Below are positions 5,576 to 58,200 of a DNA stretch of 64,000 nucleotides, piece by piece (within the stretch, counting starts at the first letter, position 1; every line of letters starts with the position of its first letter). A program made the position numbers and the translations under genes. Under the pieces are notes generated by a model. The model saw nothing but the letters and a program-made list of their open reading frames with translations, had not been told where the DNA came from and ran no database searches. The DNA is from Eledone cirrhosa (taxonomy: Eukaryota), in contig OZ024743.1 of the NCBI GenBank assembly GCA_964016885.1, positions 169,136,001 through 169,200,000 of the forward strand, in the 5' to 3' direction.

Positions 5576-7930
5576 AAAAATCTGACTCCTTTATACGATG
5601 ACTTAGATAGAAAATCAGATGAAAAAATGAATAAATCCAGTTACAAATTCGATCTTATCTTCAAATCTAAGAAGAATCCATCTAACAACAAAATATTAAT
5701 GGAATTTGAAAATGAAGTAATATCTATTACACAAAACATCAAATTCAAGCAAAACCAATTTGTAGGCCAGGAATACCTTAAAGGCCTCAATAATAATATA
5801 GACAATCTTGAAAAAACTGAGAAGATCCTCGTAAAATCTGATAAAACTAATAATCTATACGGAATGCAAAAGGACGAATATAATAACCTTATATTTAAGG
5901 AACTCAGAAAAAAATACAAAATAACAACTATGAAGATCTTGCAACGTTAAATAGAGAAGCTTCCGAAATAATTCATAAATTAGGCATCCAAAATAGGACT
6001 GAATCCTTTATACCTAGAAGACCGAAAATTAACCTGAAAGAACACAAAAGAAACTTTGAAATAGAACTACCAGTCAGACTTACAGCACCATCTAAATCAG
6101 ACTTAGTCATAATTAGTAAACATATATTAGATAGAATCATACCGCAATTTAAAGAAAAATCACACCTAAAACTATGGAACCGTACTAATGAGGTTATAGA
6201 TTGGTTCAATAACATAAAATTTAAACATAACAAAAAATTCATTCAAATGGATATTGCAAAATAATACTCCTCTATTACTCCTAATTTACTTAATAGGGCT
6301 CTTATCTATGCATCTAAACATACACATTTATCTAGTGAAGAAATGCCTATCATTCTAACTGCACAGAAAACTTTAATTAAATTCAACAATCATCTCTGGA
6401 CCAGAGCAGATAGAAAAAACAATTTTGATATCACCATGGGATCATCTGACTCGGCGCAAATAACGGATCTTGTGGGCTTATTTATTAATAATACACTGCA
6501 TAGAAAAATGCCAGAGATGACCGGTGGTTTATATCGTGATGATATGCTGCTTTTAATTGAAAACCATAGTAATTGTGAAATTAATAGGAAAAGAAAATCC
6601 ATAATACAATTCTTCAATAATTATAACGTGAAGTTAAAAATAGAGAATAACTATAAAATCGTTAACTTGTTAGACGTAACATTAAACTTTAGCACAGGGC
6701 TCTACTATCCATTCCGTAAAATTAATTGTTTCTACTTTAGGCACAAGGCCAGCAATTACCCAGTGCATTACTGGTACTTTATTTTATCGACCCCGTAAGG
6801 ATGAAAGGCAAAATTAACCTCGGCGGGATTTGAACTCAGATCGTAAAGGGACGTAACTATGCTGGAAAGCATGGCGTCCGACCCTCTACCGATACTGCCA
6901 ATCCACCGCCCTAAAATTAATTCCGTAAAATTAATGAGAATCTAAATTACGTAAGTTTTAACTCTAATCATCCTAGATCTATTAAGAACACTATTGTCAA
7001 TAGTGTCCAACAACGAATCTCACGCATCTCTGCTAATAAAAATATTTTTGATGATAAGGCTGAATATTATAATGAAGCTTTAAATAGAGCAGGGTTTATG
7101 AATAAAATTAAATACATTGACAACAATAATAAGGCAAATCACCCTACTATTAATTGTAATAATAATAAACAATTTAACTCAAACTCTAAAACAAACAAAA
7201 GAACTAGAAATATTATTTGGTATTCACCCCCATTCTCATTAAGCGTTAAAACAGCTTTAGCAAAGCTATTCTTTAAAGCACTAAACAAATGTTTTCCTAA
7301 AGCCCTCAAATACCACTCAATCTTTAACAGACATACTATAAAAATGTCCTACTCTACTACTATGAACATAGCTCAAAATATAAATAGAATTAATAATAGA
7401 AACTTAAATTTAAACCCTAACCAAAATAACCATAATAGCAGGAATAATATATCTAGCAATATGCAGTATAATAGTACCGTTCCGAGCAACAGCTACTCCG
7501 TACATGTAACTGTAGAATCAAATCAAATTGCCCTTTACAAAATAAGTGTTTAGATAAAAACGCAGTCTATAAATGCACAGTTAAAACTAGTGAAAATATA
7601 TTTAGCTATGTCGGTGCCACTTCTACAGAATTTAAAGTTTGCTGGAATAACCACAATCACTCTTTTAAAAGATCTGATAAAAAATCTTCTACTTCCCTGT
7701 CGCACCTTATATGGAACTTAAAAAGCAAGAATATAGACTATTCAATATCTTGGAAAACGATTTCGAAGCACCTGCATACTAAAACACGGCTTTATCAAGA
7801 TTCTGTAAATTGTGTATTGAAGAAATTGTTTATATAATTAACTGTCAAAACTCTATTAATCTCAGAACAGAATTATTTAGTTCCTGCAGACATCGCCAGA
7901 ATTCAACATTCAGAACTATATATAACTTAT
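5576..7930 (+). pseudogene. PLE reverse transcriptase + GIY-YIG endonuclease, frameshifted
   Basis: ORF fragments 5516-5950, 6343-6798 and 7098-7553 plus out-of-frame motifs. Interrupted by a SINE. Confidence 0.88.
6728..6911 (-). mobile_element. tRNA-derived SINE inserted in the PLE RT
   Basis: Same family as 1965-2148. TSD TAAAATTAATT at 6717-6727 and 6912-6922. Confidence 0.9.
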
Positions 7931-18342: not shown

Positions 18343-21300
18343 TCAGTGGACCCTACGACCTGAACGGATCGTGGTCTTGTAACGTGGCGATGGTGGTGGT
18401 GTAGGGACAGGCGATGATGGTGGTTCAGGAACAGGCGTTCGCTCAACAGGCAAATACGAAGGGGTTCGTGGATCAGGAACCACAGCGTCCGTGTCAAGGT
18501 GCGCCTGCTTAAGCCTGTCTATTGTAACTGTCTCCCTGGACCCCTTAATATCTAACGTGAAATGCTTAGCCGAGCGCGCTAAGACACGGTAAGGTCCAGT
18601 GTAAGGCTGTGTGAGCGGGGGCTTCACAGAATCTTTCCTTACAAAGACATGCGTCCACGAGGCAATATCCCTCGGGACAGCAGTCTTGACAGTTTGTTTC
18701 CTAGTGTCCATTGGCGGCAAATCCTGGAAATAGGAGCGCAAACGGGACACGTAGGAAGCGTGATCTTGGGCATCAAGATCGATAGGAGAAAGCATTTGCC
18801 CGGGCAACGTCAGAGGGGCACCGTACAGTACTTCGGCCGGTGAAAATCCAAAGTCGACCTTCACCGTTGACCGAATCCCTAGTAGCACAATAGGGAGGTA
18901 CTCGCTCCAATGCGCCGAGTCCATTGAGGCCATTAAGGAGGCCTTCAGTTGTCGGTGAAAACGCTCCACCATACCATTCGAAGCGGGGTGGTACGCCGTA
19001 GTTCTAATGCGTTTAGCACCAATTAATTTTGACAGCTCGAGGAAAAGGCTCGACTCGAACTGTCGTCCACGGTCGGTAGTTACTGTGGATGGAACTCCAT
19101 AACGAGAGATCCATCCAGACACAAAGCACGTGCTGTTGTCTCCGCGGTGATGTTTTTCAAGGGGATGGCCTCAGGCCATCTCGAAAAACGGTCAATGACG
19201 GTCAGCAGATAAGAAAAACCGTCGCTGACAGGCCAAGGTCCCACTATGTCAATATGAATATGTGAAAAACGCGCATCTGGATTAGCAAACGTACCCAGGG
19301 GAGCCTTGACGTGTCGATGGACCTTTGATCTCTGGCAAGCGACGCAGGAACGGCACCAAGCAGCAATTTCACGCCTCATATTTGGCCAGAAAAATCTAGC
19401 TGATATGAGCTTTGCTGTGGCAGAAGATCCTGGATGCGAGATACTATGTACTGCCAGAAACACGGTCCGACGATGATTCTCTGGAACGAAGGGTATAGGC
19501 ACGTCGAAAGAGACGTCGCAGAGAATTTGGCCAACTGCAGTCGACAGAGGCAAGTATTTCATCTCGCAATTCGCAAACTCAGGCGATGTAACATCCAATC
19601 ACTCAAGGGGAGGCTGATCCACAGCCAAACGAGTCAGATCTATGTCAGAGGATGACGAGATTGCTGTCACGGGTAAGCGGGACAAAGCATCGGCCGCTGT
19701 ATTTAGTGAACCCGGAATGTGCTGGATATCACTCGTATATTGCGAGATGAAATCAAGGTGTCTCGTCTCTCTGGGCGAGTATTTATCAGCCTTCGCTCTC
19801 AAAGCAAAAGTCAATGGTTTATGGTCAGTGAGGATAGTAAATTGTCTACCCTCTAGCACATGTGAAAAATGTTTCACGGCCAAATAGATGGCTAAAAGCT
19901 CTCTTCCAAAGGTGCTGTAGCGCGTCTCAGCAGGTTTCAGCTTTCTGGAAAAAAAACTCCAGCGGTTGCTGGTAACCATTGATGTTTTGCTGTAGTACTG
20001 CGCCCACAGCGATATCCGATGCATCAACACAAAGCGTTAGCTTTGCACCGGGTACCGGGTGAGTCAGTAACGAAGCATTAGCCAAAGCAGTTTTGGCGTG
20101 CTGAAAATCAGCAAGTTGAGTGTCTGTCAAAGAAATATCTTTGTTCTTCCTCCGACAATTTTTCAAAATTTCTGTCACGGAGAAAAGCAATTTTGCACAA
20201 TTTGGCACGAAACGCCTATAAAAGTTAATCAGACCTAAGAACTGGCGTAACTGACGTAGTGACGTCGGTGGAGGCAAATCGTCTATGACCTTAACTCGCT
20301 CAGGCCGGGGTCGAATACCGTCAGCATCGATGACGTGACCCAAGAAAGTCAGTGACTCAGCACCAAAAACACATTTGGGTGCATTAAGCTGCACGTTATA
20401 CGCCTTCAATCGGTGGAAAAGAAGATTCAAATGGTGCGTATGTTGCTCTTGAGAAGAACTAGCAATGAGCAGGTCGTCAATATAGGTATAGACGAAATCG
20501 AGGCTGCGAGTAACCTCATCCATAAACCGCTGAAAAGTACTAGCGGCATTCCTTAATCCGAACGGCATAGTCAAAAACTCGAATGACCCAAATGGCGTAA
20601 CTATAGCCGTTTTAGGAATGTCATTTTTATGGACAGGAATTTGATGGTACGCACGAATTAAATCTAGTTTGGAGAATACCTTGCATCCCTGCAACGAAGA
20701 CGCAAAGTCTTGCAGATGAGGGATAGGATAACGGTCCGGTTCCGTCATTGAATTTAAACATCGATAATCTCCAGTAGGTCTCCAATCGCCAGTCGCTTTC
20801 GGTACCATGTGTAATGGTGACGCCCTCGGGCTCGTGGACGGACGAATAATCCCCAACTGCAGCATATGATCAAACTCTGATCGTGCTGCTTTGAGTTTGT
20901 CCGGAGGCAAGCGACGAGGACGAGAAATAACGGGAGCACCAGTTGTAGTTATGAAGTGCTCCGTGGTATGAGTTGGCTCATCAACTCGAAAATTTCCCTG
21001 AGTCAGTTGCGGGAACGAGTTCAACAACGCATGGTAAGTATCGCCGGTGTTAGCAAGAAAAAAGGTCGGGCTAACCGTTGGAACTCCTGCTGCCTTGCCA
21101 ACAACAGAAAAACCAGTGATGTCATCAATTAGGCGTTTACGACGGAGGTCCACCGTCAATGAAAAATGGTGGAGAAAATCCGCGCCTAGAATCGGATACG
21201 GCAAGGCAGCGACAGTAAAAATCCATTTAAACTCACGCTGCAGATTACGGAACTGCAAAGGTAGCGAGATTTGTCCGAAGGTTCGAATCGGCGAACAATT

Positions 21301-21504
21301 TACTGCCTGCAACTCAATAGGTGACTCAGGGAGAGTCTCCTTCATACAACACACAGGCCATATTGAACAAGCTGCACCTGTGTCAACCAGAAAGGCTCTA
21401 CCTGATAGCAGGTCCTCAATAAAAAAGTGGCGGTTGGATGATGTTTCGCAGAGCGCACTATCCGCCGTTAGTGACTCTGGTCGTCGTTTCCCTTGTAAGC
21501 ACAA
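18343..21504 (-). pseudogene. pol: Gypsy pol: protease, RT, RNase H, integrase (2 frameshifts and 1 stop)
   Basis: FLVDTGA (protease), YIDDLL (RT), VDAS...RYSTFGRELLA...TDHKPL (RNase H), H..SHPG...C..C (IN zinc finger), DDE. ORF pieces 19927-21504, 19599-20030, 19080-19598, 18343-19122. Confidence 0.93.
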
Positions 21505-22243
21505 GGAGGCCTACAACGGGCGGCTTTGTCACCATATTTGTCATGGTAATAAAAATATGATAGATTTCAAGATTTGGAACGGCTACGGCGCCGAGGAGTT
21601 GAATAAGATCGTGAGCGGCTCCTCTGCCGTCCAAAAGACCTGAGTTCCTGGCACAACTCCGCCATTTGACGAGTCATGGCTTCCATAGTTTTGACCAACT
21701 TCTCATCACTCGCTGATGAGCGCGATTGAGGAAGATAAGAGGAAGCAACGTACTTTTGCTTCGAAGTGTCTCTCTTCGTCACTTCTACTATTTTGTCGGC
21801 AGAGACAGCAATGTGGTCGAGTGTGTTTAACTCTAGCATATGGGCTAGGATCGCCTGTACCTCTTGAGGTAGGCGAGAGAAGAACAATTGCTTCAGGAAA
21901 GGGCTATCCTGATCTTGGGAATCACTCAATTCACGCAAATGCCGGAGAAAAGCGGTAGCGGTTCTCTCACCTAATCGTTCGTCCTCGATAAATGACCGAA
22001 AACGACTCTCTACCGATTTACAGTTCCTTCTCAAGATCTCACCTTTTAAAGAATCATACGTTAAGTCAGAGGGGGGTCTGTAATTAGGTCTTGGACCGAA
22101 TCTGCTAAATTAGGGGGAAGTCCGCTAATCAAGACAGCGAGGCGCTGGTCAGACTCGGTCTTACAGACCGTAAAATACGCCTGTAGCTGGGCGAACCACA
22201 GCTTAGGGTTTCCGGTAAAGGTGGGCAAATGTGGCGTATTCAT
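21468..22243 (-). pseudogene. gag: Gypsy gag, copy A (pol-proximal)
   Basis: MNTPHLPTFTGNPKLWFAQL..., zinc-knuckle-like YYHDKYG...CRPPC, slippery GGGAAAC at 21486-21492 before the stop. One frameshift and one stop. Confidence 0.85.
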
Positions 22244-31316: not shown

Positions 31317-32559
31317 AAAACAAATGAGAGAGAGCTAAATAGAAGAGAAAGGGAAAAGATAAAGAGATGAAGATAAAAACGAAGAGAGGGAGATAGAGAT
31401 GGTAGAATATATAACTGTATAAGGAACAGGAAGAAAGAAGAGAGGGACATGATGCGTGACCGTTTTTGTTTTCAAATACCGTGAAATTTTTAATCTATTG
31501 TATTTGATAGAAATTATACTATTATATTATATCAAAATTAAACAATATACGATAATATAAAAAAATATAAAACATTTGCAATGATAATCTGGAGCATAGT
31601 TAAATTAATAAATACATTCAATAATTTAGTTATAAAATTCAAAGTTAGAAACATTATTAACTAACAAAGATCCTTACAAATATAGTAAATAAGTATGAGA
31701 GTGTTTAACATAACTTACTTGGATATTAGCATCTGTATATGCATTTTATATAATGTTTAGAATTATAAATATTATAAACAATACTATTTAAATCAATATT
31801 TGTCAATTACATATAGGATTAATTATTAGTTATATTTACTGTATTATTATTTCGATTCAACCAAATCTTACTGTATTCAATACTATAAATCAAGGTAAAT
31901 ACAAATTATTAATCAACTTGGATAAAACGAAAATTATACACGATAAATGTAAACAAAAGCTCCGTACGACGTTTAAATTAACTAAACGGTTTAAAAGCCT
32001 GAAGATATTACAGATCTCAAATTTAGAAAATTCAAAACATAAAAAGAGGATTCAAAACCAAACTAAAGGTATTTATTCAATCAAGAGATTATCATACTCT
32101 ATAAAAGAACCGATATGCATTTCCTAAGGTGAGGTAGAACATTATACATAATACCAATAATAATAGCATTACAAGAATTATTAATAAAAGTCAATATCTT
32201 TCCTCACTCGGTCAATGTTTTTTCTAAATTTATATGTTACTTGAAATGTTCTTGCAGATTTATGGAGGCAATTTGAAAATAACTCACTATTTTATTAATT
32301 AAATTACCATAATTAGCAATTATTAATAGAGTCTCTAGATTGCAAATATTGCAGTTAGGTGAGATGGAATTATTCCGATATGCTTCACAGTTTCTACGTT
32401 TAATTCAAGAGATTGAGTATTTTATATTTTTCTCTTTTAAAGACCATATTAATTGTGCTAATGAAGTAGAACATTTTTTATCCGGATTAGAAAAAGAATG
32501 TTTATGATTGGAAAATTTCAGTTTTAAGTTCGATGAAAAGTAATATCATTATTTGTTAA

Positions 32560-32735
32560 GGGTGGTGGATTGGCAGTATCGGTAGAGGGTCGGACGCCAT
32601 GCTTTCCAGCATAGTTACGATCTGAGTTCAAATCCCGCCGATGTTGACTTTGCCTTTCATCCTTACGGGGTCGATGAAATAAAGTACCAGTAACGCACTG
32701 GGTAATTGCTGGCCTTGTGCCTAAAGTAGAAACAA
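32560..32735 (+). mobile_element. tRNA-derived SINE in PLE
   Basis: Family sequence flanked by an ATTATTTGTT duplication. Confidence 0.88.
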
Positions 32736-32973
32736 TTATTATTTGTTTTAATGGTACATTTATATACTAAATTCTTATCAATGCAGTTATTTTGTAAAGG
32801 GCATTCAGATTTCCTTCTACAGTTACAGTTCGATTTCATGCTATTTCCATAATCTAAACTGTTCGCTTTATCATTGTTAATATTTATAGGTGTTCTACTA
32901 TATGTGCTTAAATTATTGTTATTGTTATTCTCAATAACTATGGTATTATTATTATTATTATTGTTATTATATA

Positions 32974-33155
32974 CGGCGGTGAATTGGCAGTATCGGTAGA
33001 GGGTCGGACATGCTTTCCAGCATAGTTACTTCCCTTTACGATCTGAGTTCAAATCCCGGCGAGGTTAACTTTGCCTTTCATCCTTGCGAGGTCGATAAAA
33101 TAAAGTACCAGTAATGTACTGTGTAATTGCTGGCCTTGTGCCAAAAGTAGAAACA
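32974..33155 (+). mobile_element. tRNA-derived SINE in PLE
   Basis: Family sequence flanked by ATTATTATTGTTATTAT repeats. Confidence 0.88.
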
Positions 33156-35015
33156 ATTATTATTGTTATTATCGCTAATTATATGTTGGTTAGAACTATG
33201 AATTCTGCTATTTATTTTTGAAATATTTTGAGCCAAATTCATAGTTGTTGAGTAAGAAAGTTTAACTGTGTGTCTATTGAAGATAGAGTAATATTTATGT
33301 GTTCTAGGGAAACATTTATCCAAGGCTTTAAAAAATAAATGGGCTAAAGGTATTTTAATAGCTAAAGATGCTGGTGGGGCATACCAAATAATAGATGTAG
33401 TTCTAATTTTTTTCACTGATTTATTCTCGAGATTACTATTTTTATTTATATATTTATTTTTATTTTTACAGTCAGTTTTATTTATATTATTCCTATTGTT
33501 ATGAATATTTTGTTTATAATTACAATTATTATTTTCTACATATTCAATATTATTTTTATACACTACTTTATGTAACGCTTCATTATAATATCCAGCTTTA
33601 CTATTAAAAATAGATTTGTTAGCAGATAATCTAGTTAAACATTGTTGAACATTATTGACTATTGCATTTTTAACACATTTAGGATGATTAGAATAAAAAC
33701 TAACATAATTGAGGTTTTCATTGGGTTTATGGAAGGGGTAATATAGGCCTGAGTTTAAATTAAGGGTAACGTCTAGGAAGTTAACTATTTTACTGTTATT
33801 TTCTACTTCTAATTTCAGGTCGTAATTTTTAAAGAATTCTATAATTATTTTCTTTACTCTATTTATTTCACTATCGCTATGAATTTCGACATTACCATGG
33901 GATCGTCCAACTCTGCGCAAGTTACCGATCTTCTGGGAATTTGTATCCTTAATATGATAAATAGAAAACTGCCGGAGATTACAGGTGGTTTATATAGAGA
34001 TGATATATTATTTACTGTAGTTAAACATAGCGATAGTGAATTAAATAAGAGTAAATATAACTAATAATTAATCCGATATGTAATTGACAAATATTGATTT
34101 AAATAGTATTGTTTATAATATTTATAATTCTAAACATTATATAAAATGCATATACAGGTGCTAATATCCAAGTAAGTTATGTTAAACACTCTCATACTTA
34201 TTTACTATATTTATAAGGATCATTGTGAGTTAAATGTTTCTAACTTTGAATTTTATAACTAAATTATTGAATGTATTTATTAAATTAACTATGCTCCAGA
34301 TTATCATTGCAAATGTTTTATATTTTTTTATATTATCGTATATTGTTTAATTTTGATATAATATAATAGTATAATTTCTATCAAATACAATAGATTAAAA
34401 ATTTCACGGTATTTGAAAACAAAAACGGTCACGCATCATGTCCCTCTCTTCTTTCTTCCTGTTCCTTATACAGTTATATATTCTACCATCTCTATCTCCC
34501 TCTCTTCGTTTTTATCTTCATCTCTTTATCTTTTCCCTTTCTCTTCTATTTAGCTCTCTCTCATTTGTTTTCTTTCATGTCTTCTGTCACCTTCAGATCT
34601 GGTGTAGGTGAGCTATGAGGTCTCACTCATACCAGCACTTTCCCTTCCACCCAGCCACTCGCCCTTGATGCCACTTGGTGCACCAGTTCTAGGCTCCATT
34701 CTTCATCTCTTTATCTTTTCCCTTTCTCTTCTATTTAGCTCTCTCTCATTTGTTTTTTCTCTAATACGGATATTTACATATTTAAATATTTAAATATTTA
34801 ACATTTATGTACTTATGTGTTTATGTAGTTATTTATTTTATTTATGTATTTATTTTAATTTTTCTACACTTTCTCCTACTCACCCTCTCCATTATATTTA
34901 GTTTGTCATGTTAGCACTTATGGTATATAAATATTGAGTTTTGTTGTAATTAATCACTGCCAAGACTGGAATTGAACCATCAGCACAGTTGAGGTATGTC
35001 GTACATCAATTTATG

Positions 35016-37217: not shown

Positions 37218-38421
37218 ATGTTGATATGATCTATGTCTTCTTTTTTTGGTAAGGAGAAAATATTTGTCCCCAGATTTCATTACCTAGGGAGTTTAAATAC
37301 AACACTTCTGGCTGAAAGCTGACCAGGTTCTCAACTTCATCAAACACTAACGCCGGCCTGTGTTTGTATATATATGTGTGTATGTATATGTATGTGTATA
37401 TATGTGTGTATGTATGTATGTATGTGTGTGTATGTTCACCACCATTGCTTCTTCTTGTCATTTCTGTTGAAGTAGTCCTTACTTTCATTCTCTTTGATTT
37501 CTTTTGATTTTCTTTTATCTCCCTAGGGAATTCGTTGACAAACTTCTTTAATTTAATTTCTTTGTTTTCTTCATTCAAATCACTGACTGTCTAAGAGACG
37601 TACAAATATGACTTATAAAACTTACCAAACTAAAAGGGCTTCTAGCGCCCTCAAAGTTTCAAACGCCCCCTTACTGCATAATGCCCCCTAACGCCCCCTT
37701 ACTGCATAACGCCTCCTTGGGGTTACGAAACGCCCCCCTCCACGCAGGGGGGGGGGGCATATGCCCCCCTGTTGAGAACCTTTACTGTAGACCAACAAAT
37801 ACCAAGTAAACGGAGCGTTGACAAGAACGAGGGTGAATGAATCTTCGAAGTAAGCAGTTTCCTCCCGAGCTGTTAGTTCAGGCGGGATTCTCTGCTTCAC
37901 ATTTTCGTAATATTACTGAACAACGTACTGCTGTTCACTCCTTCATCCAAAAGCCCTACAAAGCGAACATGTGCATCGGGTAGATGGATCGAGTGCAAAT
38001 CTACACCCAGCTACGTTAGAACTTGGCAAGGGACTGCACCGAGAGGGATAGAGAGAAAGAGTAACTTAGTGGAAAGAGTGCCAATGAACTTTTGAGGTAA
38101 GTAGCCTACGCCTTACTGCTATGCCACTGGAACCTTCTGCCAACTTAACCTGTGACTTTCTCCCTCACATTTACTCCAAAAAGAATATTTCTATGAACAA
38201 TGCACGTAGACAAATAAACTGTACTTTCAACTTCTTAATCTTCTCCAAATAAAACAAGTTCCCTGTCAGTATATTTTCGTTAGTTTTTAAGAGGCACTCA
38301 CAAATAAACGTTTCTCATTTGAGGTGCTTTTATCAACGTTTTTACCCGTGCAACGCCGGAATACACTGCTAGTACACTATATATCTATATATACTATGTA
38401 CATTACATATATATATATATT

Positions 38422-38539
<118 letters not shown>

Positions 38540-38571
38540 AGATCAAAAGATGGTTAAAGGAGTTCAATATA

Positions 38572-38638
38572 TTTTATTATGCGCATTTCAAAAACAAACA
38601 TCATCAAACAATAATATTTGTGTTTTCATCAGATAAAA
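38572..38638 (-). ncRNA. Type I hammerhead ribozyme (family C)
   Basis: Minus strand: TTTTAT-CTGATGA-stem II-GAAA-TGCGCA-TA-ATAAAA. TCATCAG at 38626-38632. Confidence 0.8.
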
Positions 38639-39213
38639 CAGGAGAACATGATATGAAGGCTAAAAAAACACTTGTTGATAGTGCAGTTTTAAATCAACAT
38701 ATGAAAAGTGGTTTTAGATTGATGTGTGATATTGGGAAAAATATTTTATTTAGAGAGGGGGGGAGAGAAAAGGATGAAAAGGGAAGGAGATGAGAGGGAG
38801 AGATGGGTGATAGAGAGAAAGAGATAGTTTTTATAACAGAGAGGAGATATATTTAATATAGAGGGGTTGAAAGCCGTTGGAAGATACTGTATAAATTAAA
38901 AATTTTTGAAAAATAACGAAGGGAGGATATGTGCGAGGAAAAAATATATTATATTTAGGGAGGGGTGGGGGTGGAAAGGATGAAAAAAAGGGGAGGAGAT
39001 GAGAGTGAAGGTGGAAAGGGAGAGATGGGTGATAGAGAGAAAGAGATAGTTTTTATAACTGAGAAAAAGATATAATGTTTTAATATAGAGAGGTTGGGAA
39101 CCGTTGGAAGATAATGTATAAATTAAAGGAATTTGAAAATTAACGAAGGGAAATTATGTATGGAGATAGAGAGAAAAAAATAACGAAGGGAGATTATGTA
39201 TGGAGATAGAGAG

Positions 39214-39248
<35 letters not shown>

Positions 39249-39283
39249 ATAATAATTGTGGGTGAATATTCACCCACAATTAT

Positions 39284-39321
<38 letters not shown>

Positions 39322-39896
39322 CTCTCTATCTCCATACATAATCTCCCTTCGTTATTTTTTTCTCTCTATCTCCATACATAATTTCCCTTCGTTAATTTTC
39401 AAATTCCTTTAATTTATACATTATCTTCCAACGGTTCCCAACCTCTCTATATTAAAACATTATATCTTTTTCTCAGTTATAAAAACTATCTCTTTCTCTC
39501 TATCACCCATCTCTCCCTTTCCACCTTCACTCTCATCTCCTCCCCTTTTTTTCATCCTTTCCACCCCCACCCCTCCCTAAATATAATATATTTTTTCCTC
39601 GCACATATCCTCCCTTCGTTATTTTTCAAAAATTTTTAATTTATACAGTATCTTCCAACGGCTTTCAACCCCTCTATATTAAATATATCTCCTCTCTGTT
39701 ATAAAAACTATCTCTTTCTCTCTATCACCCATCTCTCCCTCTCATCTCCTTCCCTTTTCATCCTTTTCTCTCCCCCCCTCTCTAAATAAAATATTTTTCC
39801 CAATATCACACATCAATCTAAAACCACTTTTCATATGTTGATTTAAAACTGCACTATCAACAAGTGTTTTTTTAGCCTTCATATCATGTTCTCCTG

Positions 39897-39963
39897 TTTT
39901 ATCTGATGAAAACACAAATATTATTGTTTGATGATGTTTGTTTTTGAAATGCGCATAATAAAA
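39897..39963 (+). ncRNA. Type I hammerhead ribozyme (family C)
   Basis: CTGATGA 39903-39909, GAAA 39946-39949, TGCGCA-TA-ATAAAA. Confidence 0.8.
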
Positions 39964-40086
39964 TATATTGAACTCCTTTAACCATCTTTTGATCTTATAT
40001 TATGCATACTCCAGTCCCACAAACTGTAGAGTGCTTCTTATCCGATATCTGCATTGCTTTATTGTACTACAATAAAACTCACCTCC

Positions 40087-40592
<506 letters not shown>

Positions 40593-41487: not shown

Positions 41488-41685
41488 TATATGGTTTTAT
41501 AAATATAGTTTCCATTTATAAATGCCATTGATATATATACTATATATATATATATATATGCAGAAGTTATATTTAATTTGTTGGGATTCCAACAAGCTTC
41601 AAAGTTTATAACTGACATAAAGCACTCAACTGATTACTGGAGTAAATATTCAAAAAATTGAAACTATATTTATAAAACCATAATT

Positions 41686-41749
41686 ATTTTATTATATATA
41701 TTTCAAGGACAATTAAGGCATTCTTGGTGCGCTTTCATCAGATAAAATA
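41686..41749 (-). ncRNA. Type I hammerhead ribozyme (family B)
   Basis: TTTC 41701-41704 and TCATCAG 41735-41741. Minus strand reads GAAA-TATATA-TA-ATAAAA. Confidence 0.8.
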
Positions 41750-41830
41750 CAAGAGTTGTTTTATAAAGATTGACATAACAGTTAAGGTTTTTTTTCCACG
41801 GTTATGTCAAGATTTATAAAACAAATCTTG

Positions 41831-41895
41831 TATTTTATCTGATGAAAGCGCACCAAGAATGCCTTGGTTGTCCTTGAAATATATATAATAAAATA
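41831..41895 (+). ncRNA. Type I hammerhead ribozyme (family B)
   Basis: TATTTTAT-CTGATGA(41839)-ACCAAG/CTTGGT stem-GAAA(41876)-TATATA-TA-ATAAAATA. Confidence 0.83.
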
Positions 41896-41936
41896 ATTAT
41901 GGTTTTATAAATATAGTTTCCATTTATTAATATATT

Positions 41937-45107: not shown

Positions 45108-45256
45108 CAAACAGTTAAGGATCTAGTTAATGTAGGAGGTGAGTTTTATTGTAGCACCATAAAGCAATGCAAATATCGGATAAGTACCACTCTACAGTTT
45201 GTAGGACTGGAGTATAAATAATATAAGATAAAAAGATGGTTAAAAGAGTTCCATGT

Positions 45257-45321
45257 ATTTTATTATGCGCATTTCAAAAACAAATATCATCATGGAATGA
45301 TATCTGCGTTGTCATCAGATA
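45257..45321 (-). ncRNA. Type I hammerhead ribozyme (family C)
   Basis: TTTC 45272-45275, TCATCAG 45312-45318, TGCGCA palindrome. Stem I is shortened by a deletion. Confidence 0.7.
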
Positions 45322-48013
45322 GGGAGACATGATATGAAGCTTAAAAAACACTTGTGAATAGTGAAGTTTTAAATTGTAAAAATGACCAAACCATTCCTCC
45401 CAAGAACTCCGAGGATAAATCTCAAGGATCATAAAAGTAATTTTCGAACGGAACTGCTTCTGAGACTAATCGCCCCCTCTAAATCAGATCTTGGGGTTGT
45501 TAGTAAAGTCATCTGGAATAGAATTATTCCACAGGTTCGTTCTAATTGCTCTATTTCTAACTTAAATGTATGGTTTGTTACATCTGAAGTAATTGGCTAG
45601 TTCAACAACCTGAATAAGAAAAACAAACAAAAATTTATTCAATTTGATATTGCCAGCTACTATTCTTCTATTTCCCCTTCACTTCTCAACAAAGCTCTAT
45701 CTTTCGCATTTAAATATTCTGACATCACCAAAGATGAACTTTACATCATTCTCACCACAAGAAAAACTATCATAGAATTCAACAGTGAATACTTTGATAT
45801 CACAATGGGTGCTTCCGATTCATGGCAATTGACTGATTTGATTGGTATCTTTATTTTGAATTCTTTAAATCGGAAAATTCCTCAACTTCGCGGTGGAATT
45901 TATCGTGACGATGGACTTTTAACTATCTTAAACTGCAACTTAGTTAACCTTAATATTAATAAGAACAATATACGTGATCTCTTTAAGCAACATAACCTTA
46001 AAATTGAATTTGATAACAACGTGTAACTAGCTAACTTCTTGGATATATCCCTTAATCTTGTCACAGGCCTATATTACCCTTACCATAAAAACAATGAGAA
46101 TCTAAATTATGTTAATTTTAAATCTAACCACCCCACTAACATTAAAAATGCTATAGTCAGTAATATTGAAAAAAGAATCTCAAACCTATCCTCTAATAAA
46201 GATATCTTCGATGCCAACGCCAATTACTATAATAATGCGCTTTCTAAAGCCGGTTATCCTGATAAAATTAAATAGAGTACAAAACAAATTCTAGAAGGTC
46301 TTATAGTAAAATAATTAATTATGAACATTCAATAACTTTAATAATAGACCTAGATACAAAAATATAACCTGGTATAATGCTCCTTTCTCTATATCTATTA
46401 ATAATAATATTCCTAAACTATTCTTTAGGGCCTTAGATAAATTGTAATTGCCCTATTAAAACTAAATGTCCTCTTAATAACCATTGTCTTGATAAAAACT
46501 TAGTCTATGAATGTAAGGTTATAACTGATACCAATTCCTTTACCTATTTCGGTTCCACTTCCACTTCCTTCAAAGCTAGATTTTATAATCACAATTCGTC
46601 TTTTAAATACCAACTTAAAAGAACTAACACGACACTCTCGGAACTCATATGGTCCTTGAAAGACAAAAATATTAACTATAACATCTCTTGGAGGAAGGTT
46701 TGTTCTGCCTTTCCTTACCTGAATTCTTCCCTATCCAGAACATGTAATCTCTGCCTAGCCGAGAAATTTACCATTATATCTAATTTCAATTCTATAATAA
46801 ATAGACGCATGGATTTATTTTCTCTCTGCTTGCATAAACTCCACAGAACATTCCATAAAGTATACGCTAATATCTAATACCTTACTAGTTTAAAATCCTT
46901 TTTACAAATATACCCATCTTTCTACCTTATTTCAATATTATATATTATATAATACAATTTACACATTCTATATCATTCCTCTTTATCATTTTCCTTTCTT
47001 CCTTTTTTTCTTTTTAATTTCTAACCTCTAATCTGTACTTTTTCTTCCCAACTACTTCCCAATTCTTATTACTAGCCACCACAACATTATCCATTCTTCC
47101 ATCTTTCCTCATATCATTGACCATAAAAATTATTTTTTTAATACATTATAATATTATCATTAGAAGTCCTTCGTAAACATATACATTTTTTGACGTTAGA
47201 TTTTTTTCTTCCTTAAATTTTTCATATCTCTTCTCTCCTTTCATGCTCGTTTTAAACTACTACTTAATTTGACTTTTACATATTACAATACATAAAAACA
47301 AGCTTAAACCCTAACTAATTTCTGTTAATATATTATATTATTACCATTAGAAAATATTTCGTAAACATATATACTTTTTGATGTTAGATATTTTCTTCCC
47401 TAAACATTCTTTTCTTCTTTCCTTCCGCGCTCATTTTAAACAAACTATTTACGTACACATATTACATTACATAAAAACAAACTTAAACCCTAACTAATTC
47501 CTCTAAATTCATAACTCATTCATTCTTCTCCTTCTTTTCACATTATATACTTAATATCATTACATTTTTATTTTAATAATACATATTAATAAATTCTTTT
47601 CTTCGCACATATTATTAAACCCTTCAATATACAAATCTTAATTTACTACTATTCTTAATTCCTTTTTCTTCATGCATAAACCTCATTAACTTTTAATTTC
47701 AAAATCTTTTAAATTATCTATTGTTTTCCAACGGCTTTTTAATTTCTCTCTGTGAGACAATATATTTTCTTCTCAGTTGTAAAAGCTATCTCTCTCTCTC
47801 TATCACCCATCTCTCCCCCTCTCTCATCCATCCTTCTTATACTCCTCCCCCACCATCCTTTACTCTCATTTCTTCCTTCTCCTTACCTTTTCCACACACA
47901 CACCCCCCTCACCTTTTCCCAATCTCATACATCAATCTTAATTTATTTTTCATATGTTGATTTAAAACTTCAATATTCACAAGTGTTTTTTACGCTTCAT
48001 ATCATGTCTCCTT

Positions 48014-48082
48014 ATTTTATCTGATGAGAACGCAGATATCATCCCATGATGATATGTGTATTTGAAATGCGCATAATAAAAT
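48014..48082 (+). ncRNA. Type I hammerhead ribozyme (family C)
   Basis: ATTTTAT-CTGATGA(48021)-ATATCAT/ATGATAT stem-GAAA(48064)-TGCGCA-TA-ATAAAAT. Confidence 0.85.
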
Positions 48083-48112
48083 GCTTGGAACTCTTTAACC
48101 ATCTTTTGATCT

Positions 48113-48145
<33 letters not shown>

Positions 48146-48263
48146 AATAAAAAATGGCGAGCTGTGTTGTTGCATTTAAGTATAAAAAATGAAGAATTAG
48201 AAATAGAAGTTAGGAATATCCATCATCAGTTGTCTACTATGCATCATAGGTTCATTACTTATA

Positions 48264-48294
<31 letters not shown>

Positions 48295-48317
48295 CTATAT
48301 ATATATATATATATATA

Positions 48318-48351
<34 letters not shown>

Positions 48352-48507
48352 TATATGTATATATATATATATACCTTTAGGTTTGTTGGTTCACCACTGG
48401 ATAGAACTGATCATTCCGTATCGTCAATCCTGGTGTAATATCGTGAAGAGTACTCAACGCAGTACCCATCTTCGTTTGAGTAGTTGGTGGAGCGAATACG
48501 CAGTTAA

Positions 48508-49405
48508 TCTATATATATAAAACTGTGGTTGTCTGTCTGTCTATCGATTTTTGGCACACATCTCCTCTTAGAATCTCTCACGGAATTGCACCGAAATTGC
48601 TATACTTGTACATTGAGCCCTAGCGAAGACATCGGAAAAAAAAAATTTCAAATTGACCCGCCCTATGTGACGAAATTGAATATAATGTATTGATTTTTGA
48701 GCGTAAGTTATCAGTTATTTCCCTTTGTTCTGTTTACATTGAGCGTCTTACGTAAAAAATTACGCTGGCTTTAACAGTTGTCGAGCCAGCAAAATATTGA
48801 CCTGCAAAATTCATCAGTTCGAACACTAAGCTTCCGTTTTGCTTCATTTCCATTTAAAAGCATTTTAAAACAATATTTTTACTTAAAAACAAGTCTATTT
48901 AAAGACTACGTAAAACAAGCAAATATTTTGTCGTTAGGCGTGCAGACAGAAAGTCGTGCAGAGAGGTGATATACGCGTGCAGACAGACAGTCGTGCAGAG
49001 AGGTGATATAGGCGTGCAGACAGACAGTCGTGCAGAGAGGTGATATAGGCGTGCAGACAGACAGTCGTGCAGAGAGGTGATATAGGCGTGCAGACAGACA
49101 TAACTGATAATTTGGTTACGCTAATGTTTTTCTCTGCGTTGCAGTGTTTACATTTTCGATTTTTGTTAATAAATAACCAGTGCAGTTTCTATCCCCAGCA
49201 TCCTCTTTTGTTATAACATTCGGGTTATCGTTATGTTTTCTTAACTTCATAAGGCATATTGTTGGTTGAGGGAATATTAATCAAAAACACCACATGCAAG
49301 TCTGCACAGTAGACACTACAGTTTTTAAGCCAAAAAAGAAACTTAACATTGTAACTTTAACACAGCTACTGAGCGACCCCGAGCAACGCCGGGCTTTACT
49401 GCTAG
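48508..49405 (+). mobile_element. Non-autonomous Helitron
   Basis: A|TCTATATATATAAAA start, 3' hairpin CCCGAGCAACGCCGGG then CTAG|T. No TSD. Confidence 0.8.
48937..49100 (+). repeat. 37-bp minisatellite, ~4.4 copies, inside the Helitron
   Basis: GGCGTGCAGACAGACAGTCGTGCAGAGAGGTGATATA repeated head to tail with no spacers. Confidence 0.95.
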
Positions 49406-49446
49406 TTATTAATAAAATAAAATAACAGGAGGCTGGACTGTTTATT

Positions 49447-49503
49447 ATACTATGATCATTTCATTGACCGGGTTCCATATGAATCGGTGATATCATCAGG
49501 TAT
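49447..49503 (-). ncRNA. Type I hammerhead ribozyme (family D)
   Basis: Minus strand: ATAC-CTGATGA-stem II-GAAA-TGATCA-TA-GTAT. TCATCAG at 49493-49499. Confidence 0.8.
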
Positions 49504-50762
49504 TGGAATATATCAAAGGAATATGTAAAATAAACATCCCTAGTTATTTACCTTTATTAATTTTTTTTATTATTTCATTAATGTACATTTTATTTTTTTT
49601 TTATTATTTTATTAATGTATTTTTATTAATGTATTCTATCTTTATATTTGTATTTTATCTTTGTATCCTGCTTTTATTATTTTTTTGTAACTTTCCATAC
49701 TCAGGTCATTATGCACCTTTCATAGCCCCCTACCCACCTAAGAACCACACTACATATAACCCGGACTAACTGGGACTTTAAAATAATTTTGGGTTTTGCA
49801 CTTTTCATTGGGTTGCTACATTCGACTTGTGTGGTGGCTTTTCCCGGATGCGCGCTGGGCACTCGGAAAAATATATTTCTCCTCTTTCGGTAAACGAAAT
49901 TACTCGGAGCGGATTGCTTTGCCCCTCTCCCACCGCGCTGCCTGTTTTGGCCGCCATATTATACTTATGCCTATAAACTCCAGGTATATCATGCCTCTAC
50001 TAGCACATAAATAAATCCCTCATGTGTCATTTAATAATATTCCTTTGGTATAGACGATGGCCTGTCGAAATTGTGGAGTTCCCGCTAGCGCGCCCGGGGC
50101 CTAAGGTAGCTACGTTCCTAGAGTACTCGGAAAAATTAATTTCCATTTCTTTCGCTGGACGATACCACTCGAGACTGGATGACTCATGGTGGGGGGAGGG
50201 TGCTGGCTGGGACTCGCAATCGAAATCTTTACTCTATATCCCATCCTAATATCTTATCGAGATAAATTTTTTCATATAAGACTCTCTCCATAAGTTCATT
50301 AAATAAATCTCGCTACTTTAACCTTTAATTTTCTAATAACTTATTTTTCAATTTATCATTTTGCAATTTAATATTTTTAATTTAATTTAATTTCATCCTA
50401 TAACTCGCCACATAAGTTTAACGTTCTAATCTTCGGTTCACACATTAGACCATACAGACACCCATTATAGATTCTTTGGAGTACCATTTTTTCGCAGCAT
50501 TTTCTAGCATGAATGTAGTGTGACCCTTACGCTGACTTCTTTCTCCCTTTATTTATTTCTTCCCCGTTTTCTTTGACGGAGAAGTGGTAGTGCATTATAA
50601 GCCTTCGCCTCCTCACCAGATGTTCATTAGTAGATTCAGTTGCCACCACTTTGAAGGCGACTGGCCGAGATAAAGGCAGCTAGTTGGTCGGTCGTCCTCT
50701 TTGTCTCTGTCTCTGATTTTTCGGACCCATGGATTTTTTACATATTCCTTTGTTATATTCCA

Positions 50763-50820
50763 ATACCTGATGATATCACTGGATTCATATGGAACCCGGT
50801 CATTGAAATGATCATAGTAT
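50763..50820 (+). ncRNA. Type I hammerhead ribozyme (family D)
   Basis: ATAC-CTGATGA(50767)-ACTGG..TTCATATGGAA..CCGGT-GAAA(50805)-TGATCA-TA-GTAT. Confidence 0.82.
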
Positions 50821-51016
50821 AATAAACCTTTCAAGGATTTACACCAGTCCAGCCACCTGTTATTTTATTTTATTTATATATATATGTTACAGTCTTATAC
50901 ACGCCACGAATCTCAACGTACACCCACTTACATCTCTCTCTCCACCACCGGATCTTGTTACCCGGACATTTACCCATCTGCATTGTTGAGGCTTCCAAAC
51001 CACTTAAAAAAATTTT

Positions 51017-52390: not shown

Positions 52391-52744
52391 TACACCTTTC
52401 TGCCAGATGATTGAACATCTGAAAGTATATACTTTCCTTATGCATATTAACGGCTGAGCAGCCTAATTTGCATATCGAGTGAGTTAATCGGCCGGGCATA
52501 CCAAAAACGATAAACGGAAAAAATGAAACGAAATTTCATTTCTCACGCTGAGTACGGCTGTTACTTATACGTGCATACATATATGTATACAGACGTACAT
52601 TAGTATGTATATAAATATACATACATGCACACATATATACATGTACGTATGGATTCACTGAACATTTATTATAATGCTCGGTGTGTTTGTAAACAAACGA
52701 TAGCTAATAAGCTTCAAACTAGTACAGCGTTCCTTTGTAGCAAT

Positions 52745-53562
52745 AGTAAATATTTAGAAAAATGTAAAAAAAATCAAGCTGATAATGCAGATTGATTTTT
52801 TTTACAAAAAACGTAAATAATCAATCTGTGAAAGCAAAAGTAAATATTTCAAAAAACGTGAAAAAATAAATCTGTGAATAATATATCAATCTGCGTCTAC
52901 ATTAATTTTCTTAGATGTTTCGATTCATTTGCGGTTTTCGTAAATATCTTAAAAAACGTTATAAAATCGAAATATGTAAACAAAAATCAGTAAACGCAAA
53001 TGATTAATCTTTTTACAAAAAACGTAAGAAAATCAATCGGGAAAAATCAATCAAAACTAATTATTTTGAAAAACGTAAAAAAATAATTCTGTGAATGAAA
53101 AAATCATTCAGATTGATTTTTTTACGAAAGACAAAAAGATTAATCTTTTTACAAAAAAACATAAAAAAATCAATCTGTGAACCCAGAAGTAAGTATTTCG
53201 AAAAAAGTAAAAAAGTCAATCTGTGAACACAGATTGATCTTTTAACGAAAAACAAAAAAAAAAAAAATTTGTGAACGCAGGTTGATTTTAAAAAAAAACA
53301 TAAAAAGATTGATTTTTTTACGTTCCCATATAGATTTTTTTACACTTTTCGAAATATTCGCTTTTAATCTCACAGATTGATTTTTTTTTGCGTTATCCGT
53401 ACAAAAATCAATCTGCGTTCACAGATTAATTTTTTTCGTTTTTCGTTTTCATTCACGGATTCGTTTTTTTTCATGTTTTTTTAATTATTTTCTTGAACGT
53501 AAAAAAAATCAATCTGTGAAGTAAATACGAAAAACAAAAAAAAATCAAGCAAATTGATTTTT
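52745..53562. repeat. AT-rich degenerate repeat array (AAAAAATCAATCTGTGAA motif) in both orientations
   Basis: The motif and its complement (TTCACAGATTGATTTTTT) recur many times. Confidence 0.75.
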
Positions 53563-55103: not shown

Positions 55104-56654
55104 ATTATATATAGTTTCCCTTTAAGAATTACCATATATTATTAGACCCTATAAATCATGTTAAATATACTTTAGCAAGCTATTCGGACAGAACACAATT
55201 ATTTACGTAGAATGTAAAGAAAGGAAGATAACTCGTTCATCATATGTGAACATTTAAAACATTTAAGTATTTTGAAAACCAAAAGATATTTCAAACAACA
55301 AATCAAGAAATTTCTAGTTAAACAATGACCTTTCAAAATCCAAACATAGTATACTGAGACACATCATGAGATTTATTTAATAGATAAAAACGACAAAAAT
55401 TTTACAGGTAAGGCAAAACGTTATATATATAATTTTTTAAGAATTATTAATAGTCAATATGTTTTCAAAATTTGTATAATGCTTGAAAAGTTCTTCCAGA
55501 CTTATGTGGACAGCTGCTAAATAACTCGTTTTTCTTATTAATTAAATTACCATAATTTGTAATTATCAATAGAGACTCTATATTGCCAAGATTGCAATTT
55601 GGTGAAATGGATGCAATCCGGTAGGAATCAGAATTTTTTAACAGAATTTGTTAACCAAGGAATTGGGTATTTGATATATTTTTCTTCAAAGACCATATTA
55701 ATTGTGAGAGAGATGTAGAAAATGTTTTATCTAGATTAGAAAAAGAATGTTTATGATTGTAAAAGCGAAACTTAAACTTAGATGAAGTTGCACCAATGTA
55801 GTCATATGTATTATTATTATTATTAGTCTTAATGGTACATTTATATACTAGATTCTTGTCAAGGCAGTTATTTTGAAAAGGGCATACAGATTTTCTACAG
55901 TTACAATTCATTTCGATTAAAATTAACTATTTTATTGTTATTTTCTACTTCTAATTTCAGGTCATAATTTTTAAAGAATTCTATAATTATTTTCTTCACT
56001 CTATTTAATTCGCTATTATTATGTCTATCTACAGTAAATAATATGTCGTCTCTATATAAACCGATAATCTCCGGCAGTTTTCTATTTATCATATTAAGGA
56101 TGAAAATTCCCACAAGATCAGTAACTTGCGCCGAATCAGACGAGCCCATAGTAATGTCAAAGTTCTTCTGCCTATTAGATCTAGTCCAAAAATCATTATT
56201 AAAATCAATCAAGGTTCGCCTTGCTGTTAAAATGATATTTATCTAATCACTAGATAGATCTGTGTGTTTATATGCATATGAAAACGCCTTACTTAGTAAG
56301 TTAGGAGTTGTCCATTTGAATGAATTTATGATTTTTATTATTTTCGATATTATTGAACTAATCTATGACTTCAGTAGTGCCCTTCCGTAGGTTAAGCCTT
56401 GACCTCAATTTTAACGTTGGCAAAATCATGTCTATTATGTTTTTACTAATTATACCAAGATCTCATTTCGAAGGTGCAATAAGTCTAACAGGTAAGTCCT
56501 CTAAACATAACCAAATACAAAAGATATTAACAATTTCATGTTATTTAATTGGTTGCCTCAATTTGACTTAATATTTGAAAACAACGGTATTTATACCTAT
56601 CCACCTCATTTCTTTCTTTCTTTTTTGTCGTTATTTCTTCTTTCTTCTTCTCAC

Positions 56655-57252: not shown

Positions 57253-57339
57253 AGTGGGTGTAACTAGGAGTTACTGCAGGTTCACCCAGGTACCAATAGA
57301 GACAAGGAACATAACGCCAATAGATTACCTGGAACCTAT

Positions 57340-58200
57340 TTGAAACACAAGCCTGACCAAAACACACACAAACTCACTAAACAACGCATAAACCGAAGTA
57401 GACCTGTCACGTGGTATAACCCACCCCCCTATTCTATACACGTCGCCACTAACATACCGGGAACCTTTTTCAGGGCCCTCGAACAATCTTTTCCACACAC
57501 ACACAAATACCACAAGCTTTTCAATAAACACACCGTCAAATTCTCTTTCTCCACCGCACCAAACCTAGGCCACACAATAGCACACAATAACAGGGCAAAA
57601 ATACAAAAACACATGGTTTCCCCTCAACAAACCACCACCACAACCCAGAACGAAACCACACACACAACACAACACAACAACACACACACCACACCAACAC
57701 CGCACGACACCAACCGCCACCGTTGCACCGCACCGGTTACTCCCAAATGCAACTGCAAAAGACGAGACGAATGCCCACTAAACGGGGAGTCCCTCGTTAA
57801 GAATATTGTTTACCGGTGCGATGTCACAGCCGGCAATAAAGAGTACTCATATATAGGTGCGACATCCACTACGTTTAAGGAGCGCTGGTATAACCACAGA
57901 AGCTCCTTCAAACATAGATCGAAACGACCCCAAACAAAACTGGCCGATCAGATCTGGGACCTCAAGGACAGGAATATTGAACCCTGGATCTCGTGGTCAG
58001 TAAAAAGACGTGTGGCATACATCCCCAGTGACAGAAACCACTGCAGATTATGCCTAGCTGAGGCGGCGGAAATAATTAAACTTGAATCCGCCATAAACTA
58101 TAGGTCGGACATAATTGTCAATTGCAGACACACTAGGATGCACACCTTTTCTGCACAATCTTTCGCGGGAAGACCACGCACTAACCATGACCCACCATAA
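57340..58200 (+). CDS. PLE C-terminal linker + GIY-YIG endonuclease (open frame, 5'-truncated element)
   Basis: VTWYNPPPYS, KLFNKHTVKFSFS, CNCKRRDECPLNG..LVKNIVYRCDV...YIGATSTTFKERWYNH, CRLCLAE, CRH. Confidence 0.85.
   Translation: MKHKPDQNTHKLTKQRINRSRPVTWYNPPPYSIHVATNIPGTFFRALEQSFPHTHKYHKLFNKHTVKFSFSTAPNLGHTIAHNNRAKIQKHMVSPQQTTTTTQNETTHTTQHNNTHTTPTPHDTNRHRCTAPVTPKCNCKRRDECPLNGESLVKNIVYRCDVTAGNKEYSYIGATSTTFKERWYNHRSSFKHRSKRPQTKLADQIWDLKDRNIEPWISWSVKRRVAYIPSDRNHCRLCLAEAAEIIKLESAINYRSDIIVNCRHTRMHTFSAQSFAGRPRTNHDPP

What the first reader, a model, noticed from the sequence alone, without database searches (positions are those of the whole stretch)
49411..50874. MITE-like 1.46-kb element whose terminal inverted repeats are outward-facing hammerhead ribozymes
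Seen: ~120-140-bp inverted arms, each with a complete family D HHR (GAAA-TGATCA-TA), around ~1.2 kb with no recognisable RT or transposase. The core has two diverged GC-rich units (ACTCGGAAAAAT...TCTTTCG...ACTCG at ~49860 and ~50125) and hairpins at 50557-50695. Inference: a non-autonomous PLE derivative or retrozyme variant in which a transcript of either strand ends in a self-cleaving ribozyme and the termini can pair into a panhandle. It would be mis-annotated as a DNA-transposon MITE. No family D autonomous partner is in this window.
Basis: partly seen in the sequence, partly recalled or inferred. Interest (0 to 1): 0.8.

Follow-up and report, generated by a model that had tools for sequence, protein, structure and literature searches.

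The report
Inverted non-coding Penelope retroelement copy
This stretch is one copy of an abundant protein-free repeat with the build of a Penelope-like jumping gene, whose ribozyme-like end was likely pasted in twice, back to back, at the moment of insertion, so it only looks like a miniature DNA transposon.

Summary
Both hammerhead motifs and the inverted arms are real. The MITE-like two-arm unit is not. The left arm is not a terminus: a young 898-bp Helitron-like insert (48508-49405) splits it from a 133-nt continuation (48375-48507) that ends in (TA)n. The true insertion spans 48375-50876. It belongs to a non-coding repeat superfamily (units of about 2.0-2.4 kb; 4,382 exact ribozyme-motif matches genome-wide) with every DNA hallmark of Penelope-like elements (PLEs): one fixed 3' end plus an optional 148-nt tail, 5' truncation, partial tandems, head-to-head inversions and (TA)n targets. 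This inversion junction occurs once in 3.0 Gb; other inverted copies span 143-1,806 bp. Such inverted PLE ends are in print, and this scan reached the same reading earlier in another genome. Of more interest: 32 of 33 two-ribozyme insertions carry exactly one tail, the tailed arm is often the shorter, and four inversions consist of tail only. This favours two priming events at two fixed RNA sites over fold-back copying. No autonomous partner was found. Expression and cleavage are untested.

The parts
48260..48373 (.). (TA)n microsatellite, left target flank
48375..48507 (-). Tail of the inverted arm (unit positions ~3-143 of the 148-nt tail); true left end of the insertion
   Evidence: 88-89% match to family unit; same tail end abuts TA repeat at 1,316 exact places
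48508..49405 (+). Later Helitron-like insertion (TC...CTAG, 3' hairpin, between A and T) that splits the inverted arm from its tail
   Evidence: 40 of 40 scored candidates full length at 98-99%; A|TC and CTAG|T ends in 8 of 10 loci; flanks match the family junction with one mismatch
49406..49530 (-). Inverted pLTR end (unit ~1824-1964) with an 18-nt deletion
49451..49499 (-). Left minimal type I hammerhead core; predicted cleavage after 49451; stem II weakened by private changes
49531..49533 (.). Head-to-head inversion junction, unique to this locus
   Evidence: 1 exact match in 3.0 Gb; context
49534..50876 (+). 5'-truncated direct arm (unit ~581-1964 of a 1,964-nt non-coding unit), ends without tail
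   Evidence: 91% to L002
49858..49915 (+). GC/CpG-rich unit 1 (approximate ends); conserved in three subfamilies; candidate internal promoter element (inferred)
50115..50171 (+). GC/CpG-rich unit 2, 77-79% like unit 1
50767..50816 (+). Right minimal type I hammerhead core with palindromic stem III; predicted cleavage after 50816
50877..50885 (.). Short (TA)n, right target flank

Best explanation
This is one insertion of a high-copy, non-coding repeat family built like a Penelope-like element, and its second ribozyme-bearing arm is an inversion specific to this locus that was likely made during insertion. Likely mechanism: a PLE reverse transcriptase/GIY-YIG protein supplied in trans cuts both strands of a (TA)n tract (inferred). 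Each cut end primes cDNA on the element's uncleaved RNA, one at site A (end of the pLTR, unit 1964) and one at site B (148 nt further 3', end of the tail) (inferred from copy ends, shown as DNA junctions). Both cDNAs stop early and are joined head to head, which gives outward-facing pLTR copies of unequal length with the tail on one side only (structure shown; joining step inferred). A Helitron-like element later landed between this arm and its tail (shown). The hammerhead is a minimal, dimer-type motif that would cleave poorly as a monomer and would be masked by arm-arm pairing in a transcript of this copy (predicted). Odds: about 0.9 for the identity, about 0.65 for two-site priming.
For: Family unit and two fixed 3' ends. 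Ends abut (TA)3+ in 48 of 51 tail ends and 46 of 49 tail-less ends. 4,382 exact motif matches, control 0; of 22 neighbours under 5 kb among 100 listed places, 21 are divergent, 28-1,477 bp apart. In 63 position-sampled insertions, 37 have both orientations; 33 have a hammerhead end in both arms, of which 32 carry one tail, 1 none, 0 two (binomial p 4e-9 against 0.5). The tailed arm is shorter in 13, longer in 9, tied in 7 of 29. Four insertions pair a tail-less arm with an inverted tail-only piece (L089, L234, L235, L241). Arms of one insertion are closer than the median other copy in 16 of 19 (p 0.002), and share rare variants in 8 of 45 pairs against 26 of 1,980. Partial tandems exceed one unit (L002, L004, L011, L016/17, L021, L221). 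Literature: two RT start sites bound the tail, both strands are cut and extended, and uncleaved RNA is the template in vitro (PMC11167929).
Against: No autonomous PLE sharing the pLTR, tail or hammerhead was found, so the trans partner is assumed. The tail is 148 nt, against 30-40 nt in the papers read. In this copy the two arms are not closer than average (4.1% against 2.9% over 97 nt). Shared variants between arms could also come from gene conversion inside palindromes. Sampling on an intact ribozyme motif favours two-arm insertions. No RNA data were obtained.
Confidence: 0.85

Rival explanations
1. MITE-like unit: the 1.46-kb two-arm structure moves as such, its terminal inverted repeats being ribozymes.
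For: 120-nt inverted arms around a non-coding core, TA-rich flanks.
Against: Junction unique; left arm continues into a tail beyond a later insert; spans vary 143-1,806 bp and inverted repeats 71-682 bp in 31 sampled pairs; 26 of 63 insertions have one orientation only.
Confidence: 0.02
2. Same family, but the inversion arises by fold-back: the first cDNA (or an antisense RNA, as proposed in PMC3846280) self-primes and copies itself.
For: Arms share private variants; many junctions are near-perfect palindromes with little spacer; self-priming is a published proposal.
Against: Fold-back of a tail-initiated cDNA needs the tailed arm to be the longer; it is the shorter in 13 of 22 resolved cases and here. 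Tail-only inverted pieces have no template in the other arm (4 cases).
Confidence: 0.2
3. Long retrozyme: the unit is cut by its hammerheads into a ~2-kb monomer, circularised, and copied by rolling-circle reverse transcription.
For: Covarying hammerhead; more-than-unit copies; circular templates were proposed for PLEs (PMC4209133).
Against: Copies are mostly dispersed and truncated, not arrays of 150-450-nt monomers (PMC7229834). 5' junctions to (TA)n show no peak at the cleavage site: 3 of 35 distinct places listed. Most copies have U-U at the base of stem II. Tandem source loci explain more-than-unit copies without circles. This rival is compatible with two-site priming.
Confidence: 0.15
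4. Two independent insertions of the family landed back to back.
For: The arms here differ by 4% plus an 18-nt gap; all copies favour AT-rich targets.
Against: Only 3 nt separate the arms; 21 of 22 close neighbours genome-sampled are divergent rather than random in orientation; the one-tail pattern fits a single event.
Confidence: 0.05

Closest known systems
EN+ Penelope-like elements with inverted pLTR and optional tail (PMC3846280; PMC8557442 Fig. 2 legend and text, passages read)
   Same: 5' truncation, partial tandems, an inverted truncated copy at the 5' side, tail at one end only, hammerhead in the pLTR, (TA)n targets
   Different: No ORF; tail 148 nt instead of 30-40 nt; no cognate autonomous element found
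Minimal hammerheads of metazoan PLEs (PMC4209133, parts 1-2 of 4 read)
   Same: Type I core, long helix II, short helix I, palindromic stem III; the paper already reports dual motifs about 100-700 bp apart on opposite strands
   Different: Base of stem II is U-U in most copies rather than the conserved G-C; activity untested here
Non-autonomous PLEs such as Chlamydomonas MRC1 (PMC8557442 passage) and pLTR-flanked cargo moved in trans (PMC3846280 passage)
   Same: Non-coding or foreign core moved by cis-acting pLTR ends; pLTRs and head-to-tail copies
   Different: Those share 3' ends with an identified autonomous family; none found here
Metazoan non-LTR retrozymes (PMC7229834 passages; bioRxiv 10.64898/2026.07.22.740005 part 1 and passages)
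   Same: Non-coding, type I hammerhead, PLE-derived
   Different: Those are 150-450-nt tandem monomers with mostly canonical ribozymes and circular RNAs; this unit is about 2 kb, dispersed, truncated and inverted
PAc (Poseidon of Anolis) in vitro (PMC11167929, parts 1-2 of 4 read)
   Same: Two internal RT start sites that bound the tail, AT-rich target, AC-rich sequence at the distal start, cleavage not needed
   Different: Autonomous, 30-40-nt tail; inversions were not analysed in the parts read
L1 twin priming (recalled, no call)
   Same: Two primers from the two target strands give a 5' inversion
   Different: Here both start sites are fixed and 148 nt apart, so the arms usually duplicate the ribozyme region

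Membership tests
Penelope-like element (non-autonomous) | Hammerhead motif in the terminal repeat | tested here: met
   93.6% of cells paired, 13 of 17 pairs with two-sided change across 12 window motifs; 0 of 500 shuffles reach the score (related sequences inflate this control)
Penelope-like element (non-autonomous) | Fixed 3' end, variable 5' truncation, partial tandems forming pLTRs | tested here: met
Penelope-like element (non-autonomous) | Inverted 5'-truncated copy adjacent at the 5' end | tested here: met
   37 of 63 sampled insertions
Penelope-like element (non-autonomous) | Optional tail at one end | tested here: met
   32 of 33 two-arm insertions have one tail; length 148 nt differs from the 30-40 nt in print
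Penelope-like element (non-autonomous) | AT-rich or microsatellite target | tested here: met
   94 of 100 ends abut (TA)3+
Penelope-like element (non-autonomous) | Autonomous RT + GIY-YIG element sharing the ends | tested here: inconclusive
   none; searches score only top candidates or exact patterns
Penelope-like element (autonomous) | ORF with RT and GIY-YIG endonuclease | tested here: not met
   longest frames 83, 86 and 118 codons in three subfamily units; no PLE peptide hit
MITE | Copies of uniform length with the same two termini | tested here: not met
MITE | Terminal inverted repeats at both physical ends | tested here: not met
   left arm is internal; insertion extends to 48375
MITE | Fixed target-site duplication | tested here: inconclusive
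   both ends lie in (TA)n, where a duplication cannot be read
Non-LTR retrozyme | Tandem arrays of 150-450-nt monomers | tested here: not met
   units 1,964 and 2,412 nt, mostly dispersed and truncated
Non-LTR retrozyme | Self-cleavage and circular RNA | not testable with these tools
   no RNA data obtained; indirect test negative
Hammerhead ribozyme | Core CUGAUGA, GAAA, UH and stems I-III | tested here: met
   stem III is an 8-nt palindrome (duplex -7.2 kcal/mol)
Hammerhead ribozyme | Catalytic self-cleavage | not testable with these tools
   constrained monomer fold is far less stable than the free fold (-2.7 vs -14.4 right; +0.2 vs -9.8 left)

The most novel reading that the evidence does not exclude
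Thousands of insertions of this family record a twin-priming reaction in which a dimeric PLE protein starts cDNA from two fixed RNA sites 148 nt apart, one per target strand. That would explain the long-unexplained inverted pLTR with a one-sided tail. The family would also be an orphan 2-kb non-coding retroelement moved by a PLE with which it shares no detectable sequence.
Probability: 0.4. Interest if true: 0.55.

Novelty: new member of a known kind. Interest (0 to 1): 0.3.

Why it matters
It removes a false class (ribozyme-ended MITE) and warns that inverted PLE insertions can pass as MITEs. The family itself is a useful natural data set: its long tail makes the two priming sites easy to tell apart, and the one-tail rule with tail-only inversions discriminates between published ideas on how PLE inversions form, a step the PLE papers read here call unresolved.

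Tried and rejected
Rfam: no hammerhead or other family above noise. ARAGORN: no tRNA in 4 loci, so no tRNA-SINE head. Hairpins and GC-rich units: no folding signal. Tail structure: one conserved long-range helix encloses the tail but shows no two-sided change in 24 sequences, so it is only suggestive. Autonomous partner: 30 of 289 tail-continuing matches viewed, those that continue are all non-coding relatives; the window's GIY-YIG family shares no DNA with the unit in 31 loci; variant-ribozyme patterns gave almost only family members; PLE fragments upstream of L224 and L174 are separate insertions. The tblastn hit of 'L018_0' to the unit is an artefact, a frame overlapping the unit itself. 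The 'near-between' control was biased (nearest ten chosen) and was replaced. A YY1-like and a TATA-like motif (labels recalled) at about 49952-49977 occur in one of three subfamily units only, so a promoter role stays a guess. Paper searches for PLE twin priming, MITE plus hammerhead plus Penelope and non-autonomous TA-targeting elements found no description of this family or of the one-tail count; subscription papers and supplements were not seen.

Full report
Observation. The arms at about 49407-49530 and 50736-50878 are inverted copies, 83% identical, with an 18-nt gap on the left. Each has a hammerhead core pointing outward, with predicted cleavage after 49451 (-) and 50816 (+). Across 12 hammerhead motifs of the window, stems I, II and the palindromic stem III covary (13 of 17 pairs with two-sided change; slid controls far lower). 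Rfam does not score them. The core has a true 61-nt internal duplication. The named hairpins fold no better than shuffles.

The left arm is not an end. A genome search with the whole stretch gave copies that match query 130-1481 or shorter 3' parts, never with this left arm attached (40 of 3,210 candidates scored). Longer copies define a 1,964-nt unit (from L002). Mapped on it, the window reads: (TA)n, inverted unit 3-143 (48375-48507), an 898-bp insert, inverted unit 1824-1964, then direct unit 581-1964, (TA)n. The insert has TC and CTAG ends between A and T and is a separate young repeat: 40 of 40 scored candidates are full length at 98-99%. Its flanks match the family's pLTR-tail junction with one mismatch. 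I call it Helitron-like from these ends (features recalled). The inversion junction has 1 exact match in 3.0 Gb (mismatched copies were not searched).

The family. A 32-nt ribozyme motif has 4,382 exact matches, control 0. With 21 pairs per 100 listed matches this suggests roughly 3,500 insertions (inference, lower bound). At least three subfamilies exist (units of 1,964 nt, 2,412 nt and an older one, 70-83% alike where alignable); none has a frame over 118 codons or a PLE peptide match. Copies end at one of two fixed points: the pLTR end or 148 nt further on. The second abuts TA repeats at 1,316 exact places. In the sample, 48 of 51 tail ends and 46 of 49 tail-less ends abut (TA)3+.

Architecture count. 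I took the first 83 of the 100 listed matches on contig C1; two (L201, convergent single copies 4 kb apart) were left out, giving 63 insertions. 26 have one orientation. 37 have two; 33 of these carry a ribozyme end in both arms, with spans of 143-1,806 bp in the 31 measured. Of the 33, 32 have one outer tail, 1 none, 0 two. That count includes L211 (tail displaced 2.6 kb), L196 (second arm seen) and the complex L221. The other 4 pair a tail-less arm with an inverted piece of tail only. In 29 simple cases the tailed arm is shorter in 13, longer in 9, tied in 7. Arms of one insertion resemble each other more than the median other copy in 16 of 19 (1 of 20 skipped), though not in this window's copy. 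Sampling on an intact motif favours two-arm insertions.

Mechanism. Shown: two fixed ends, TA targets, variable head-to-head junctions, one tail. Inferred: a PLE protein in trans cuts both strands and primes two cDNAs, one at each fixed site; they stop early and are joined. This joins up with in vitro work on the Anolis element, where two internal start sites bound the tail, both strands are cut and extended, and ribozyme cleavage is not needed (PMC11167929, parts 1-2 of 4 read). Simple fold-back cannot give a shorter tailed arm or a tail-only inversion. For the ribozyme: the monomer fold is unfavourable and stem III is an 8-nt palindrome, as for dimer-type PLE motifs with low activity (PMC4209133, parts 1-2). 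In a transcript across both arms, the -177 kcal/mol duplex pairs the core with the antisense arm, so panhandle and cleavage would exclude each other. 5' junctions with (TA)n fall at the cleavage site in only 3 of 35 distinct places listed (100 of 152 rows), fewer than at neighbouring TA microhomologies.

Partner. None found. 30 of 289 tail-continuing matches were viewed; those that continue are non-coding relatives. All but 2 of 85 variant-ribozyme matches are family members. Of 270 motif occurrences in 284 loci, a few had PLE fragments upstream; the two best cases are separate insertions. L278 is a distant relative with another stem III palindrome and a similar tail (score 122, best of 300 shuffles 101). 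Coding PLE fragments in the window with related ribozymes look Hydra-like (motif recalled), and Hydra elements are reported to target (TA)n (PMC8557442 passages); the link is a lead only.

Known and new. Inverted truncated copies with a one-sided tail are described (PMC8557442 and PMC3846280, passages). Dual minimal hammerheads on opposite strands were reported in 2014. New here are the family, its 148-nt tail and the counts. Searches did not show them in print; supplements and subscription papers were not seen.

Verdict. New member of a known kind; the MITE reading is refuted; interest 0.3. Expression and cleavage remain open.

Noticed in passing
window 48508-49405: Young 898-bp Helitron-like repeat with a 37-bp internal tandem array; 40 of 40 scored copies 98-99% identical, some in head-to-tail pairs.
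   Followed up: partly
window 2790, 3328, 9093, 35024, 38632, 39903, 41741, 41839, 45318, 48021, 54118, 56987: Further hammerhead motifs with stem III palindromes TATATA or TGCGCA; several in inverted pairs (38378-40208, 41646-41933, 45213-48125). The window is dense in PLE ends.
   Followed up: partly
window 5630-7911 (+), 32318-34049 (-), 45391-46853 (+), 55480-56495 (-), 57292-58197 (+): Broken PLE RT and GIY-YIG fragments, Hydra-like by recalled motif; a first look with the last gave 54,988 candidates genome-wide.
   Followed up: partly
window 18343-21510 (-) and 29-1051 (+): LTR-retroelement pol remains (RT, RNase H, integrase) in several frames, and a separate integrase frame.
   Followed up: no
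hammerhead stem II across loci: Most copies have U-U at the base of stem II; a minority have A-U, and an older subfamily shows a compensated G-C at the next pair. The most abundant form may be the weaker ribozyme.
   Followed up: partly
L278:1501-1748 and L275:1501-1620: Distant relatives with a different stem III palindrome but similar downstream end; possible bridge to the autonomous driver.
   Followed up: partly
L022/L035, L032, L033, L036, window 49430-49440: Recurrent small deletions of different lengths just downstream of the cleavage site, over a short hairpin.
   Followed up: no
L221:3217-5628: Complete 2,412-nt unit of a second subfamily with internal ~230-nt repeats, between two ribozymes in tandem.
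   Followed up: partly
window 52738-53461: Array of diverged ~46-bp units next to a long TA tract.
   Followed up: no
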